This document shows positions 27,001 to 33,000 of a DNA stretch of 64,000 nucleotides, in pieces. Source of the DNA: Gemmatimonadota bacterium (GTDB lineage Bacteria > Gemmatimonadota > Gemmatimonadetes > Gemmatimonadales > GWC2-71-9); assembly GCA_039586365.1 (NCBI GenBank), contig JBDHKN010000029.1:8128-72127 (forward strand). Reading direction: 5' to 3'. Each line of letters begins with the position of its first letter. Positions within the stretch are counted from its first letter, which is position 1. The position numbers are program-made.

Positions 27001-30000
27001 CCACGTTCACCGAAGTACCGGTGTATGCGCCCCTCAGATTCATACCGGACCGATCGAGAACTACACGCCCGTTGGCCCAGAACGTTATCCGTCCATCGTC
27101 TTGTCCCGGACTGTTGAGCTGGATGCGCATCTCCAAGGCCACCCAGCGTCCATCCAGACTGTCAAAAGACAGCGACGACGCAAGGGATCCAAGCCACCTC
27201 TCTGCATCGGAGTACTGCGTGCCGTTGGGAGCAGCGACATTGCTCACGGGATCTGAGATAGCAGTCCCACCGCTCCGGATCCAGAAGTGCTCCATCCAGG
27301 CGAAGCACCACGCACAGTCGATGTAGTGGCTGCGCATCCTGGCCATCTTGGGAGGGTATTCGGTGGGCCACGCCGCCTGGAATCTGTGATACCAGCGGAA
27401 GTAGACCTCGGCGAAGGACTCACTCGGCCGCACCCCGCCCAACGGGTGATCGCCGAAGAACCAGGCTAGCCAGCCGGCCGATTCTTGTCCCAGGGTATAT
27501 TCCTGCTGCATCGACCGCTGACCGCCCAGCGCTTCGCCCGAAACGACGGCGAACCCGTCGTCGTCGTAGTCGCTCCAGTCGCTGCGGTCGTCGGTCTCAA
27601 AATCCTCGCAGATAATTGTGCTGGAATGTGAGCACGTGGGTTCAGGAGAACGGACAATCGGCTGCGACAGTGTCGGTGCGCTCAGCGAGTCGGGTGCGAC
27701 AGGCGGTGCCCCGTCTGCACCACAACTAAACAGTGCGGCCAAGACGGGTACGCCCACCAGCGCACTGGCTGCAGCCGCCTTGAGGCCGTCTCTGAGTGTC
27801 GTGGGGAGGCGAGAGATCATCGAATCCTCCAACTCATTGTCACCACCGAGGAAGACCGCAGGCCATATCGCCTTTCGCGGCGCCCGAGTCTGCCAAAGTT
27901 GAAGCCGCTGGTCTGCCTACACGCCCTCCGGATCAACGCGCGCGACGTGACCGGGACAGGATCTTGCGAACGTTCAGTAGCAGTCTCTTCTGGTCAATGG
28001 GCTTGTCCACGTATCCGTCAGGTGGCGGCACCGTGCGCTGATAGATCAGTCGGCGGAGCTCAGGTCGTCCCGAGACTATGCATACTGGAATACTCCTGAG
28101 TGCCGGGTCACTTCTCATTTCCTCGAATACCTCTCCCCCGTCTTTGCCGGGCATCGAGATATCCAGTGTCACCATATCGGGCCGCTCACTGCGGGCCAAT
28201 TCCAGGGCCTCCTCACCATCACGGGCCTCCACCACTGTCGCGCCGCTATCGCTCAGTACGGTGCCAATGAACGTGAGGCTGTCTGGCTCATCGTCAACCA
28301 CGAGTATCGTGTAATTGGAGAGATCCATCACCACATCAAACTCCATCCCTAGTCGAATGCCGCTGGGCTGGGGCCTCGGCGACCATTGTAGTCATCACTG
28401 CTGCAGTGTAGGTGTTGGTCACCTACTCGACGATCAGTGTGCCTCTCTCGTACATGTGGTAGTCACTGCACCAGATCGTGCACAGGAAGAGATATTCACC
28501 CGCGACCTCGGGAGTGAATGTGACCTCTGTCACGTCGCCGGGTCTGATCGCTCCTGTGCTGAGATTGAGCGCGGGCAGATAAAAGCTGTGTGTCACAGTA
28601 TCCGGATTCTTCACCACTATGGTCACCTGGTGCCCGCGCTGGACTCGGATAGTGCGCGGCGACCAGTTGCCCCGCTCGGGGGCACGCGTCAGCAGCGTCA
28701 GCCTGGCCGGCTCCGCTTGGACCGGTCTGCAACCGGAGACCGTCAGTGCGGGACCCGCCAGGCACAACAGCGTCACAACTGCGGCTGCGCCGTTCCGCAT
28801 GAACATCGGACTATCCTTCGAACAGCCAGAGAAAGAGTATGCTGAGCCCCATCAGGAACAACAGCATCGGTATCCACCCCCTCTTCGCCTCGTTGCCCGT
28901 GGCGAATATCTGTCCGGCGAACCTGTAGCCGTACTCCAAGGAAAACGCCAGCCCTCCTAATAGCATCACCGTTTGTAGATAGGGAAGCGCCCCGGTCCAA
29001 AATGGCGCGAATCCCCAGCCTGCAGTTCCCAACAAGTTCCAACCCACGGATAGCGGGTCTGAGAGGACTCGCGGTATGTAGCTCCCGTTGACGAGAATGA
29101 TGCCCAGACTGAACGCAGCCCAGCGAGCAATGCCCAGTGGGACGAGACAGTAGGAGAATCCTACGAACACCTTCTTGAGGGATACCTGCTTGTCTCCACT
29201 TGCCAGCTTCGAGAGGTACGACACCAAGAGAAACAGACCCGGCACCAAGACGAAGCTCAGCACCGTGTAGGCCGCCACGAAGAGCGCATAGCCGCCGAGG
29301 GTTTTCACACTCACCAAATCCCGGAGCCAACCGTGGGGTCCCTGCATCGTGAGAAAGAAGACGACGAGAACACCGATCATTGTCAGGCTCTTGAATGCCT
29401 CATCGAGACCCCGGCGGTTGTAGCGATCGTCCGTGCGCTTCCGCGCCGTGAGTAGGTCGGTCCCGAACGGCCTAAGGTTGAGAGCCATGTTGTCGTGAGG
29501 GCAGGTCTTGAAGCACTCCATGCACAAGCCACAGTAGGTGTTGCGATTCAAGTCAAACGGCTGCTCCATCCAGGGGCAGCCGTAACCTTTCTCGTTTCCC
29601 ACGTAGCAACTCTTGGGCTTGTGGGTCTGGCAGATCGCCGGGTCTTTTACCCTGACCTCGCATGCAGCGAAGTTCGCGTACAGTCCCTGGAAGCCGCTGA
29701 CTGGGCAAACGTACAGGCAGAAAGTCCGCTTCTCGAATATCACGGAGACGATGATCGCTCCGAGCACCACGACTGCCAGCAGGCCGAACGTAGCTATTGG
29801 GATGACCGTGAAGAAGCCGAACAGAAACGTCGCTACAAAGAACACCATCGTGACGGGCCAGAGATTGCGGAACCTCTTGGGCCACCGCTTGCCCAGCCCC
29901 CAGGACTTGTGTTGGCCGACACCGATGAGCTTACCCCTCTGTAACCAATCTCCCAGCAGAGGGAACGGACACACCATACACCAGAACCGGCCCAACACGG

Positions 30001-33000
30001 GCACGAAGATCGTCATCAGGAGCACCCACCAGAGTACCCAGACGATCATGACACCGAAATTGAGGTTCCCCGCTGAAACTCCGCCCCTGAGACCGGATAC
30101 CAGGATGACCACGAGGATGAGCGAGTTCAGCACGACGAACAGAGTGGGGAACCAACGATTCTTAAACAGGTTCCGCACCGGTTTGTACTTGGTGAGTTCA
30201 AAGCGCCAGTCTAGAGGAACGATGCCGAACAGGGCGTCCCGACTGCGCTTGCTTCTCTTGAACGCCAATGCCAACGAGCCAAGGGTCAGCAGCACTATGA
30301 GGATCACACCCGCGTGGTACCTCCGGTTGGGCAAGACTCGCAGATAACCGTACTCGTAGGGGTGCATCCAGCCACAAGTAACCGAACAGCGGAAGGAGAA
30401 TCTCCCGGCCTTGTCAGCCACGAATCCGATGAGTCTGATCTCACCGGGGTCGACGGTGGCTTGTATGCCGTAGTCGTATAGATAGAACCCGTGTGTGACA
30501 TCTCGGGAGATGAGCTTGATCGCTACTGTCTCGCCTTCTTTCACCGTGATGATGCTGGGGTCATAGCTGAATCTTCCGACGCTCACTTCGACCGTGCGTT
30601 GACCCCCGACGAGTTCTCCGGAATAGCGATCCGAATCACTACACGAAGAGATCGTGCAAGCCAGCGCCACGACCGCAAACGCCCCAAGCGCGTTACTGTT
30701 TGCTCTCAATCCCGCTCCAGGATCAGTGGTCTCACAATCGCTATGGACTTTGCCGCAAACGACTCCGTCTTCGCTCCGTCCCACACAGCAAAGGAAATCA
30801 GCGGATCACTTCCCGGTGCCAGCTCGATTGCGCCATCTTGTTGGCTACTCAATGATCGCTTGAACACCACGTACCACTTGCCATCCCTGTGCTCCCCCTT
30901 GGCCGTGACATTCTGGCTCTCCAACGGTGTCTGCGTTCCGGGACCCGATGTTATCAACTCGGCGACCGCCTTGACCGAGTCACTTGCGTTCTGATGTTGT
31001 GCGGTATCCCAGTCGGCGCGCCAGTGCCAGATGTTGCCACTGCCGCCTTGAGCCATCATCTGTCCCATTGCCGGCGAGTCCGCCGGCTCGATGAAAACAG
31101 CGCACGCATCGGGCTTTGGTGCGACGTCACGGTTCTCCGTGTCATCTGCGAACTCGACTTGGAATGCGATCTCGCCACCGTTGTAGGCCCCCCTGACCCA
31201 AATGTCCCTTTCCTCGGTGCCGTACGGCACTCTGGCATTCTGAGGCCACAGGTGAATCCTCATAGCTGCCATGCCGGCCCAGTATTCAGCGAGGGGGTCT
31301 AACGGGAGGTCAGAAGTTGTGTACCCGATCCTCAATGGTTCTTCTTCTGTCACGCCCACGAGACGGTCTCGGGTCAGACTGTACATCACGCCGAAGAACG
31401 CCGCTCCCAGGAGCAACAACGGCACGAAAAACCTGAGCATCGTTGCTGTGGTGTGTTTACGCGCGCCGGTGTCGATGGTGTACCTCATTGTTGTGTGCGT
31501 GGAATCTTCTCATTGTGCATCGCGGCATGGTAGAGGAATGTAGCGAGTACAATCGCCGACTGCCTTAGATCTGCCTCGTTGAACCGTTCGCAGAGATCCG
31601 TGTTCGTGTGGTGGGACGGACATCCCCAAGCAGTACTTTTGGCTAAATGGAATAGACGCCTGTACCAACAATGTTGTCAGTCCCGGGAGTGAGTAAGATA
31701 TGAGTTGAAGTACGATCCGCGAGCCGCGCCGGCCTTGCGACGTAGCGGTAGCTCCGGTCCCAATCGCGCGGTACCTTAGGGCGACTCGACACCCGTAGAC
31801 TATTCCATGCAAACTGACTCTGCTGTAAAAGGTGGCACCGCCAAGAGCGCAATTCTGGCATTGCTGACCGTGACGATCGCGGTACTGCCGCTCCAGAGGC
31901 AGCAAGCCGCCCCGGAACCGCTGTTCGGCCTCGAGACGATCTTCGAGGACGGCCTCTTGCTCCAGGACCGGAACGGCGACGGTCACATAGACCACGTTGC
32001 CGCGCATTTGTCACTTGGCAGCGCTCCGAGCGATCGCGACGTGGCCGCTGCTGCCAATGTCGCAGCTCGCTTGGGGTTCGAGACTGCTGCGATGAATCTG
32101 CCCCTTACTACAGCGACTGAGGGCGTCACCATCGCCGTCGGGCGGTCTGCTACGGCGCAATTGGCTATCCCGCCCGATCGCCTCGGCGCAGATCTGGAAC
32201 CTGGTGTGGGCGTCGCTGCTGTGTTGGACCGTGAAGCGGGACCTGCCCTTGTCGTCACAGGGGGCGACGACGTGGGAACAGCCGCGGCCGCACTAGCTCT
32301 CGCCGCCCGGGCACCACACCTGTGGGACCCTGACGGGCCGACCTTCCAAGATGTGACCGCGGCAACGGGCGGGGTTCTCGGGGCGGCCCAGATCGAGGAC
32401 GCAAGTGTGCGAGTGACTCGGTTCCTGGTCGACCACGACACACCCGGGCTGCACCGGCTTGATGTTGAGGTCCGCGTGCCCCGCGAGATGCTGAGCCGAG
32501 CCGAAAGCGCACTGCTTCAGGCGGCTGCGCCCGATACCGCACCGTCCGAGCCAGAGGCTGCGACCGAGGTGGCACAGGCCGCCGAGACCGCACAGCAACC
32601 AACCTCCCTGCGGTTCGACGGATTGCGCTTGCTGCGGATCTATCTGTCGGCCGTCGCAACCGAGCCGATCATCCTCCACATTGCCGGAACAGAGGATCCG
32701 CCGGAATCAGGGTCGGGCCGTCGTCCCGGCGGAGGCGACAAGACCGATCTGGATCTCTCTAACCTCTACACGACCGACGGATTCCTCGGCGATTCGGACC
32801 GTGACCTCATCCCCGATCGGGTGGACGTATTGCTGAGCGCCGCCGGCGAGACATCCGGGGCAACCGCTGACCTCGCCGCGCGTATCGCGCTGGAGGCCAC
32901 TGGCGTCGTAATCCCAATCGCTGTGCCGCCGGAGGAGATCGATGATCCGGAAGAACGACCCCCGCTTGTTCTCATTGGAGGCACGCATCCGTTGATCGGG

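What a model noticed while it worked through the whole genome (the two positions that open the first line are those of the whole stretch)
28423..31488. CuA-like cupredoxin fused to a NapH-type polyferredoxin, with a free CuA-like partner and a haem-b subunit but no cataly [...]
g01494 (632 aa) carries a periplasmic cupredoxin with a C-x3-C-x3-H copper motif of the CuA type on a NapH/NosR-like membrane polyferredoxin; it is flanked by a second, free CuA-like cupredoxin (g01493) and a type-II DMSO-reductase-like haem-b subunit (g01495), and a 69% identical pair (g02241+g02240) lies at C64:34255-36536, while no NosZ or other enzyme that would use them is seen nearby. I read the trio as a self-standing quinol-to-periplasm electron gate in which copper, not haem c, carries the electrons outward. 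It would be a new kind of respiratory wire in an anaerobe and a family so far labelled hypothetical.
Evidence so far: pfam.tsv: g01494 Cupredoxin_1 14-109, COX2 55-118, Fer4_5 222-261 and 309-345; g01493 Cupredoxin_1 45-126; g01495 EB_dh 69-248. NCBIfam below cut: g01494 N-part to the NosZ C-terminal CuA domain (1.4e-12), SoxA, CtaC; 229-409 to NapH/MauN (2.4e-5); g01493 to the NosZ CuA domain (4.7e-10), CoxB; g01495 to DMSO_red_II_gam (2.2e-27). Sequences: V-T-H-G-F ... F-R-C-S-V-T-C-G-W-M-H-P-Y-E and V-T-H-S-F ... F-L-C-T-I-W-C-S-D-Y-H-M-Y-E, i.e. the place of the axial Met of CuA (recalled) is Glu in both. Whole-length relatives at E<=1e-40: 2 of 60 other genomes of the phylum, and those match only from residue 126 or 172 on, without the cupredoxin. 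ESM Atlas: nearest clusters (0.95, 0.94) are 'hypotheti [...]
(Added by a program. Inside this text positions count along the whole contig: contig position 8,128 is position 1 of the stretch shown here. "Call 12" and the like, gene names such as g00115 and contig names such as C1 are that model's own, and its searches are not shown. The text may have been shortened before it was handed on; [...] marks where a part breaks off. The agent that wrote the report below was given it as the finding of a first reader that could run no searches.)

Follow-up and report, generated by a model that had tools for sequence, protein, structure and literature searches.

The report
Orphan copper electron module, altered ligands
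These three genes are a known but untested membrane electron-transfer module that usually serves a nitrate-reducing enzyme; here it has lost that enzyme, and both of its predicted copper sites carry glutamate where methionine is the rule.

Summary
The trio is real and under purifying selection, but it is not a new system. It is the membrane module of the Methanoperedens nar operon (haem-b Orf7, HCO II, nine-helix NapH, HCO II; Arshad 2015), in the same order, with the first copper domain fused to NapH (28-51% identity). Of 81 related loci, 43 carry that molybdoenzyme and 5 carry NosZ; the fusion is widespread. The distinctive points: no such enzyme was found in this 86%-complete genome, and both CuA-type motifs have Glu at the axial Met. 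Met is the family norm (103 of 118 motifs, and the C64 paralogue); Glu/Glu is one small clade. A distant fusion family also has Glu (118 of 118 motifs), so Glu is tolerated long-term. Best reading (0.45): a membrane-to-periplasm electron wire acting in trans on a tetrahaem and a heptahaem cytochrome that flank the module in relatives and lie on C64 here. Copper binding, donor and direction are untested. The genome has oxygen reductases, so 'anaerobe' is wrong. This scan found the same variant before on other DNA (e1-2220450).

The parts
30706..31488 (-). Membrane-anchored haem-b subunit (EB_dh; Orf7/EbdC/NxrC type), one N-terminal helix; predicted ligands Met144 or Met145 and Lys247
   Evidence: Pfam EB_dh 2.9e-23; TIGR03477 2.2e-27, below cut; aligns to 7b04_C and 2ivf_C; M144 68, M145 70, K247 72 of 72 homologues; 28% to the ANME-2d gene
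28811..30709 (-). Fusion gene: lipoprotein-type signal, CuA-type cupredoxin, ten-helix NapH-like polyferredoxin
   Evidence: AF2 model pLDDT 86.3, pTM 0.88; dN/dS 0.085 against L094
30329..30622 (-). Cupredoxin domain 1 (residues 30-127), periplasmic by inference
   Evidence: Foldseek best match Thermus ba3 CuA, rmsd 1.1 over 94 columns; VIA Z 15.3, rmsd 1.7, 100 aligned; dN/dS 0.076
30353..30388 (-). Ligand loop C108-x3-C112-x3-H116-x2-E119 (first His73 at 30491-30493); Glu at the axial-Met position
28814..30322 (-). Membrane part: one helix inherited from the cupredoxin anchor plus the nine-helix NapH-like protein
   Evidence: 51% identity over 477 aa to the ANME-2d NapH-like protein, E 4e-176; helices; nine helices in Table 1 of PMC4683180
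29702..29980 (-). Two Cys-Pro motifs, C244-x2-C247-P and C331-x3-C335-P, predicted on the cytoplasmic face
   Evidence: Invariant in 111 of 111 family-1 proteins and 116-117 of 117 family-2 proteins; side inferred from helix order
29501..29632 (-). Ferredoxin-like domain: C360, H363, C368, C378 and C393, C396, C399, C403; two predicted [4Fe-4S] clusters, one probably His-ligated
   Evidence: Cys invariant; position 363 is His in 107 and Asp in 4 of 111, Cys in 117 of 117 family-2 proteins; cluster assignment inferred
28423..28806 (-). Free CuA-type cupredoxin 2, lipoprotein-type signal; loop C109-x3-C113-x3-H117-x2-E120 at 28447-28482
   Evidence: 37% to the second ANME-2d HCO II; dN/dS 0.155

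Best explanation
An orphan copy of the haem-b / CuA / NapH / CuA module. It works as an outward one-electron wire: reductant enters the NapH-like protein (quinol in the membrane, or a cytoplasmic donor at the Fe-S clusters), passes to the two periplasmic copper domains and the haem b, and leaves to a partner encoded elsewhere. In this genome the likeliest partners are the tetrahaem cytochrome c (C64:32901-34253) and the heptahaem-TPR protein (C64:36935-39229), which could feed NapA or the oxidases. The paired Met-to-Glu change retunes both copper sites, probably to lower potential. Shown: homology, gene order, motifs, selection, co-occurrence. Inferred: copper binding, topology, donor, direction, partner, effect of Glu.
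For: Same order and 51/28/37% identity to the ANME-2d nar module. Of 81 loci, 43 lie behind the NarG-like molybdoenzyme and 5 before NosZ; of the 51 with at least 7.5 kb upstream, 39 and 2. Both enzymes are periplasmic electron sinks, and the molybdoenzyme has no known copper need (recalled). An SCO gene lies in 15 of 81 loci; SCO proteins assemble CuA (PMC6696091 passages). The parts fuse in several ways: haem-b with cupredoxin 1 in 13 loci, all three in P0123, cupredoxin 2 with cytochrome c in distant relatives. The tetrahaem gene is in 8 of 8 genomes with this orphan module and 0 of 6 same-genus genomes without a close copy; the heptahaem gene in 8 of 8 and 1 of 6. Two genomes with an enzyme-less locus encode the molybdoenzyme elsewhere (G309, G310), so separation from the partner occurs. 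Predicted complex of fusion and free cupredoxin: weak support, 0.48 against best control 0.00; the mark was reached by 116 of 157 solved and 2 of 215 mismatched pairs, but at 0.60 or under by only 18 of 157 and by both mismatches; runs agree in at least 87% of contacts, partner pLDDT at least 74. dN/dS 0.08-0.18.
Against: No experiment on any member is known to me; Arshad 2015 calls the complex a possibility and routes electrons through a Rieske complex and soluble cytochrome c, which would make the CuA domains entry ports. No invariant His lies in the membrane helices, so no haem bridges the Fe-S side and the copper side. The two cytochrome genes flank the module on the opposite strand, so they are not co-transcribed, and they are not beside the window copy. 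The co-occurrence groups are kin, 63-94% complete where stated, and picked by the feature. The cytochromes also flank Met/Met copies (C64, L097), so Glu is not tied to them. One Glu-clade fusion has lost the His ligand (L016). The fold does not single out CuA: CupA, nitrosocyanin and FtrB score Z 14.3, 14.2, 13.7.
Confidence: 0.45

Rival explanations
1. Inward wire or anchor. The CuA domains take electrons from cytochrome c, as in oxidases and NosZ. In the nar operon they pass them to haem b and NarH; in the orphan they pass them into the quinone pool or the cytoplasmic Fe-S clusters.
For: CuA is the entry port in oxidases. Arshad's model feeds Nar from soluble cytochrome c. Cytochromes c are the conserved neighbours. 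Nitrospinota loci carry the fusion without a reductase nearby (L046, L065).
Against: It leaves the invariant Fe-S and Cys sites without a role in the nar operon. An NAD(P)H flavoprotein inserted in the ferredoxin domain (P0100) and an FrhB gene inside the module followed by multihaem cytochromes (L071) fit outward flow better.
Confidence: 0.18
2. Copper handling. The NapH-like part is a CcoG-like cupric reductase and the cupredoxins are copper acceptors or chaperones; Glu makes the site labile.
For: CcoG has two Fe-S clusters and reduces Cu(II) (PMC7558416 passages). The Cys-Pro region is distantly homologous to the genome's CcoG (probability 91%, 115 columns). Membrane Met221 is kept in 109 of 111 and 110 of 117 proteins of both families. 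SCO and NosZ neighbours occur.
Against: No CcoG model hit at E<=0.01. A true CcoG lies in the cbb3 cluster (406 bits, cut 317) and an SCO on C91. The commonest partner is a molybdoenzyme with a haem-b subunit, which this does not explain.
Confidence: 0.13
3. The partner is the usual enzyme, on unassembled DNA or far away: a Methanoperedens-type nitrate reductase or NosZ.
For: Genome 86% complete. G309 and G310 hold the molybdoenzyme away from the module. NosZ is in 3 of 8 genomes with the orphan module (G003, G005, G308). G307 has a 32% partial match to the molybdoenzyme on a short frame.
Against: No full-length molybdoenzyme match in this genome or in 8 of 8 others with the orphan module; 5 of those 8 show no NosZ. 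Where NosZ is present, its cluster holds its own cytochrome b and multihaem genes (L113, L114).
Confidence: 0.12
4. The Glu sites hold another metal or a single copper, and the module is a redox sensor or a reductant supply for a non-respiratory periplasmic protein.
For: The distant Glu family sits beside an FG-GAP propeller (21 homologues in 28 loci) and a TPR protein, with no respiratory enzyme seen. L016 has lost a His ligand. No Glu locus lies beside a known reductase (0 of 10).
Against: Both Cys and both His ligands are kept in nearly all Glu proteins, the haem ligands are intact, and the propeller has no close homologue in this genome (25-27%).
Confidence: 0.1
5. A decaying relic left after loss of the reductase.
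For: No catalytic partner beside it; a second, Met-type copy exists on C64.
Against: dN/dS 0.085, 0.155, 0.183 against L094 at dS 0.34-0.38; the neighbouring peptidase gives 0.167. Intact in relatives at about 73% identity.
Confidence: 0.02

Closest known systems
Accessory genes of the Methanoperedens nar operon: narG-narH-narJ-orf7-HCO II-napH-HCO II (Arshad et al. 2015, PMC4683180)
   Same: Haem-b protein, cupredoxin, nine-helix NapH-like protein, cupredoxin, in the same order; 28%, 51% and 37% identity to the ANME-2d genes.
   Different: No narG, narH or narJ; cupredoxin 1 fused to NapH; lipoprotein-type signals in place of helix anchors; Glu for Met in both motifs (ANME-2d has Met in both).
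CuA domain of haem-copper oxidase subunit II and of NosZ
   Same: Fold and His...Cys-x3-Cys-x3-His spacing.
   Different: Axial residue Glu; the review PMC6696091 calls the Met coordination fully conserved in oxidases and N2O reductases. Not attached to an oxidase subunit I or a CuZ propeller.
NapH/MauN/NosH, NosR and CcoG membrane polyferredoxins
   Same: Two Cys-Pro motifs and a two-cluster ferredoxin domain; weak matches (TIGR02163 2.4e-05; CcoG).
   Different: Far below family cut-offs; five extra C-terminal helices; no NapG partner; first motif C-x2-C-P; probable His ligand at 363.
Type II DMSO-reductase gamma subunits (EbdC, anammox NxrC, haloarchaeal Orf7)
   Same: Sequence match to 2ivf_C and 7b04_C with Met and Lys at the aligned places.
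   Different: No alpha or beta subunit of this type found in the genome.
FtrB/FtrD of the FtrABCD iron-uptake system (recalled)
   Same: A cupredoxin paired with a NapH-like polyferredoxin; FtrB scores Z 13.7, rmsd 1.5, 88 aligned.
   Different: FtrB lacks the two-Cys motif (recalled); no permease or P19 gene was recognised beside the module in the loci examined.

Membership tests
Methanoperedens-type nar membrane module | Order haem-b, HCO II, NapH-like, HCO II | tested here: met
Methanoperedens-type nar membrane module | NapH-like protein with five extra C-terminal helices | tested here: met
   51% over 477 aa to the ANME-2d protein; helices
Methanoperedens-type nar operon (whole) | narG, narH, narJ upstream | tested here: not met
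   Upstream gene is a divergent M14 peptidase; best genome match to the ANME-2d alpha subunit 23%; genome 86% complete
CuA centre | Cupredoxin fold with His, Cys-x3-Cys-x3-His | tested here: met
CuA centre | Axial methionine | tested here: not met
   Glu119 and Glu120; Met in the C64 paralogue
CuA centre | Binuclear mixed-valence copper bound | not testable with these tools
   Needs spectroscopy
Type II DMSO-reductase gamma subunit | Met/Lys haem-b ligands | tested here: met
   Aligned to EbdC M108/K201 (ligand roles recalled); conserved in 68-72 of 72
Type II DMSO-reductase gamma subunit | TIGR03477 cut-off | tested here: not met
   95.7 bits, cut 169.85; a nar-operon member also falls short, 127.3
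NapH (TIGR02163) | Score over cut-off, NapG partner | tested here: not met
   24 bits, cut 213; no NapG in the locus
CcoG cupric reductase | TIGR02745 match, place in ccoGHIS | tested here: not met
   No hit at E<=0.01; the genome's CcoG is on C98
Quinol dehydrogenase | Quinol oxidation | not testable with these tools

The most novel reading that the evidence does not exclude
Natural CuA centres with glutamate as axial ligand exist, fixed together in two paralogous domains here and again throughout a distant family, and serve a haem-free transmembrane wire that carries electrons from cytoplasmic Fe-S clusters or quinol to periplasmic multihaem cytochromes with no dedicated reductase.
Probability: 0.3. 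Interest if true: 0.7.

Novelty: new variant of a known kind. Interest (0 to 1): 0.42.

Why it matters
The parent module is the unexplained link between the membrane and the nitrate reductase of methane-oxidising archaea, and it recurs across many uncultured phyla. This genome holds a matched pair, Met/Met on C64 and Glu/Glu here, 69% identical, so four small soluble domains allow a direct test of what a natural axial glutamate does to a CuA site. Reuse of the module with NosZ, and alone, suggests a general plug-in wire. None of this is shown experimentally, and the parent system is in print.

Tried and rejected
Catalytic partner in the genome: no NosZ; 13 molybdopterin matches, none a Methanoperedens-type alpha subunit. 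The best 'NarG' hits in G002-G004 were stand-alone molybdoenzymes of about 810-830 aa. L017's genome (G306) as a complete-genome test: rejected, the record has runs of N inside the gene and showed no oxidase, NapA, SCO or NrfA. Search with the tetrahaem protein found only 2 loci. Fold search of the membrane domain alone: no Foldseek match at E<=0.001, best VIA Z 8.0 to unrelated helices; this shows neither a new fold nor absence. Expression: no RNA holder listed. Promoter scan: nothing over chance; an upstream palindrome is not kept in L094. Order-wide search: 7 of 301 genomes match, the 6 others only at 39-45% without the fused domain; 7 of 61 among relatives. Nine paper searches, judged from listings, showed no paper on the fusion, the orphan form or a natural Glu CuA; the library lacks most subscription journals, and no supplements were read, so bacterial copies may be listed there. 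'M160Q' and 'M160E' occurred in none of the 14 papers listed, so the effect of axial mutants is recalled only. Not used: ESM Atlas, representatives search, viral collections.
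Full report
Observation. 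The three genes are present as described, on the minus strand and tightly packed. The ligand sets are H73, C108, C112, H116, E119 in the fusion and H73, C109, C113, H117, E120 in the free cupredoxin; the Glu aligns with the axial Met of Thermus-type CuA. Contigs of two other runs carry both Glu codons unchanged. All three genes are under purifying selection against a close metagenomic relative, L094 (dN/dS 0.085, 0.155, 0.183). The C64 pair exists at 69% and 55% identity but has Met in both motifs and no haem-b gene.

What it is. The fusion has 1348 homologues at E<=1e-20 among 8000 candidates scored, in several bacterial phyla and in archaea. A profile scan confirmed 411 of 450 genome stretches, including Methanoperedens. 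Arshad et al. 2015 (PMC4683180; passages and the whole of section 13) describe a seven-gene operon narG, narH, narJ, orf7 (b-type cytochrome), HCO II, napH (nine helices), HCO II, and call the complex a possibility to be tested. The window trio is the last four of these genes in order, with the first HCO II fused to NapH: 28%, 51% and 37% identity to the ANME-2d genes. I matched the ANME-2d locus by record title and gene order, not by locus tag.

Contexts. Of 81 genome loci (L004-L084; one distant second NapH-like frame in L050 dropped), 43 carry the NarG-like alpha subunit, 5 carry NosZ just downstream with an SCO and a third cupredoxin, 9 are flanked by a tetrahaem or heptahaem-TPR gene, 1 shows only a beta subunit, and 23 show none of these, many being short contigs. 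Among the 51 loci with at least 7.5 kb upstream the counts are 39, 2, 4 and 6 other. The alpha label rests on a BLAST score of 400 or more to the ANME-2d protein; substrate was not tested. The fusion occurs in 25 of 81 loci, 8 of them in nar operons, so the fusion itself is not linked to the orphan state.

The glutamate. Among 123 proteins, 118 motifs were found: 103 Met, 13 Glu, 1 Lys, 1 Thr. Of 82 loci with both motifs visible, 74 are Met/Met, 7 Glu/Glu, 1 Ile/Met and none mixed Met/Glu. On a NapH-domain tree of 95 rows the Glu rows form one clade (SH-aLRT 99), inside a 15-row clade without adjacent reductases, inside a 30-row clade of fused forms that also holds nar and NosZ loci (quick method, midpoint root, rows under 400 aligned residues left out). 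It is thus one event on the tree, not seven, but it needs two base changes in each of two genes (ATG to GAG); a short conversion tract between the genes is not excluded. A second family at about 31% identity, first seen in same-genus genomes, ends its motif in Glu in 118 of 118 motifs among the best 120 hits and forms a separate clade. It lies beside an FG-GAP propeller in 21 of 28 loci. A review calls the Met coordination fully conserved in oxidases and N2O reductases (PMC6696091 passages), and another says the axial Met influences the potential (PMC6696605 passages). That engineered carboxylate or amide ligands lower CuA potential by little to about 130 mV, depending on scaffold, is recalled and comes from no call. 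Against a tuned site: one Glu-clade fusion has lost a His and the Glu (L016).

Anatomy. The AF2 model (pLDDT 86.3, pTM 0.88) has a cupredoxin closest to Thermus ba3 CuA and ten long helices. With a lipoprotein-type N-terminus outside, both Cys-Pro motifs and the ferredoxin domain fall inside (inferred). Eleven Cys are all but invariant across both families; position 363 is His in family 1 and Cys in family 2. No membrane His is invariant, so how an electron crosses is open. The haem-b protein keeps Met and Lys at the places of the EbdC ligands (ligand roles recalled). The predicted complex of the fusion and the free cupredoxin gave weak support: 0.48 against 0.00; 116 of 157 solved and 2 of 215 mismatched pairs reach the mark, but at 0.60 or under only 18 of 157 and both mismatches; 87% contact agreement, partner pLDDT at least 74.

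Partner. This genome shows no NosZ or Methanoperedens-type NarG. It does hold caa3- and cbb3-type oxidases, CcoG, an SCO and NapA. None of 8 other genomes with the orphan module gave a full-length NarG match; G307 gave a 32% partial one; 3 of 8 hold NosZ elsewhere; NapA was found in 6 of 9 including this one. In Glu-clade relatives the module lies between a divergent heptahaem-TPR gene and a convergent tetrahaem gene. Here those genes flank the C64 Met copy, and the window copy lies between a peptidase and a response regulator, as in L094 and L108. The tetrahaem gene was found in 8 of 8 module genomes and 0 of 6 same-genus genomes without a close copy; the heptahaem gene in 8 of 8 and 1 of 6. 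These genomes are kin and incomplete, so this is a lead, not a statistic. Distant relatives fuse cupredoxin 2 to a cytochrome c, and 4 of 6 Methanoperedens-type loci place a multihaem gene next.

Donor. Quinol is the default by analogy with NapH (PMC9012536 passages). Two natural constructs point to cytoplasmic donors as well: an NAD(P)H flavoprotein inserted within the ferredoxin domain (P0100) and an FrhB gene between cupredoxin 1 and NapH (L071).

Verdict. It is a member of the Methanoperedens-type module but not of the whole nar operon, and CuA-like but failing the axial-Met feature. Outward wire to cytochromes in trans 0.45; inward wire 0.18; copper handling 0.13; usual enzyme on missing DNA 0.12; other metal or sensor 0.10; relic 0.02. 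New variant of a known kind, interest 0.42. Earlier notes of this scan reached the same reading on other DNA; I consulted them after forming mine, and they are not independent support.

Noticed in passing
L124:8850-10856, L126, L127, L128-L155: A distant family (about 31%) of cupredoxin::NapH fusions with invariant axial Glu, followed by a membrane-anchored FG-GAP propeller (fused in L146) and a TPR protein; in several Desulfobacterota loci near UbiA, TatD and phosphodiesterase genes that resemble ebo clusters (name recalled).
   Followed up: partly
L004, L005, L007, L009, L055: The module directly upstream of SCO, a third cupredoxin and a Sec-type NosZ (496 bits, below the 625 cut) in Fidelibacterota and a spirochaete.
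   Followed up: partly
P0100; L071:9399-10397: An NAD(P)H flavoprotein inserted in the ferredoxin domain; an FrhB gene inside a nar-less Methanoperedens module followed by 5- and 8-haem cytochromes.
   Followed up: partly
L002:7317-17841 (G000 C64:10114-21228): NapA cluster with cytochrome b, an octahaem protein, Rrf2 regulator, a NapH-like protein and a porin, about 13 kb from the Met copy; in G003 and G005 the same cluster adjoins a nos cluster that is absent here.
   Followed up: partly
L046, P0095, P0096, P0098, P0099: Redoxin domain fused ahead of the cupredoxin, including in Nitrospinota; possibly a built-in thiol reductase for CuA assembly.
   Followed up: no
L079:7532-8971: In a Woesearchaeota record the second cupredoxin is fused to a multicopper-oxidase domain.
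   Followed up: no
L081, L083, L086-L093: Distant variant: PCYCGC protein, cupredoxin, NapH-like, cupredoxin::cytochrome c.
   Followed up: no
window 13940-15304 (-): Ankyrin-like repeats fused to a C-terminal domain with four CxxCH motifs.
   Followed up: no
window 23699-26603 (+), 31807-36063 (+), 38034-41165 (+), 55355-57484 (+): TldD/PmbA pair, a 1418-aa M14 peptidase, a propeller-containing S41-type protease and a Dpp7-like peptidase: a peptidase-rich neighbourhood unrelated to the trio.
   Followed up: no
G000 C55:32562-57241: Dense cluster of multihaem cytochromes (8-21 CxxCH) with Rieske and cytochrome b genes; another possible electron sink.
   Followed up: no
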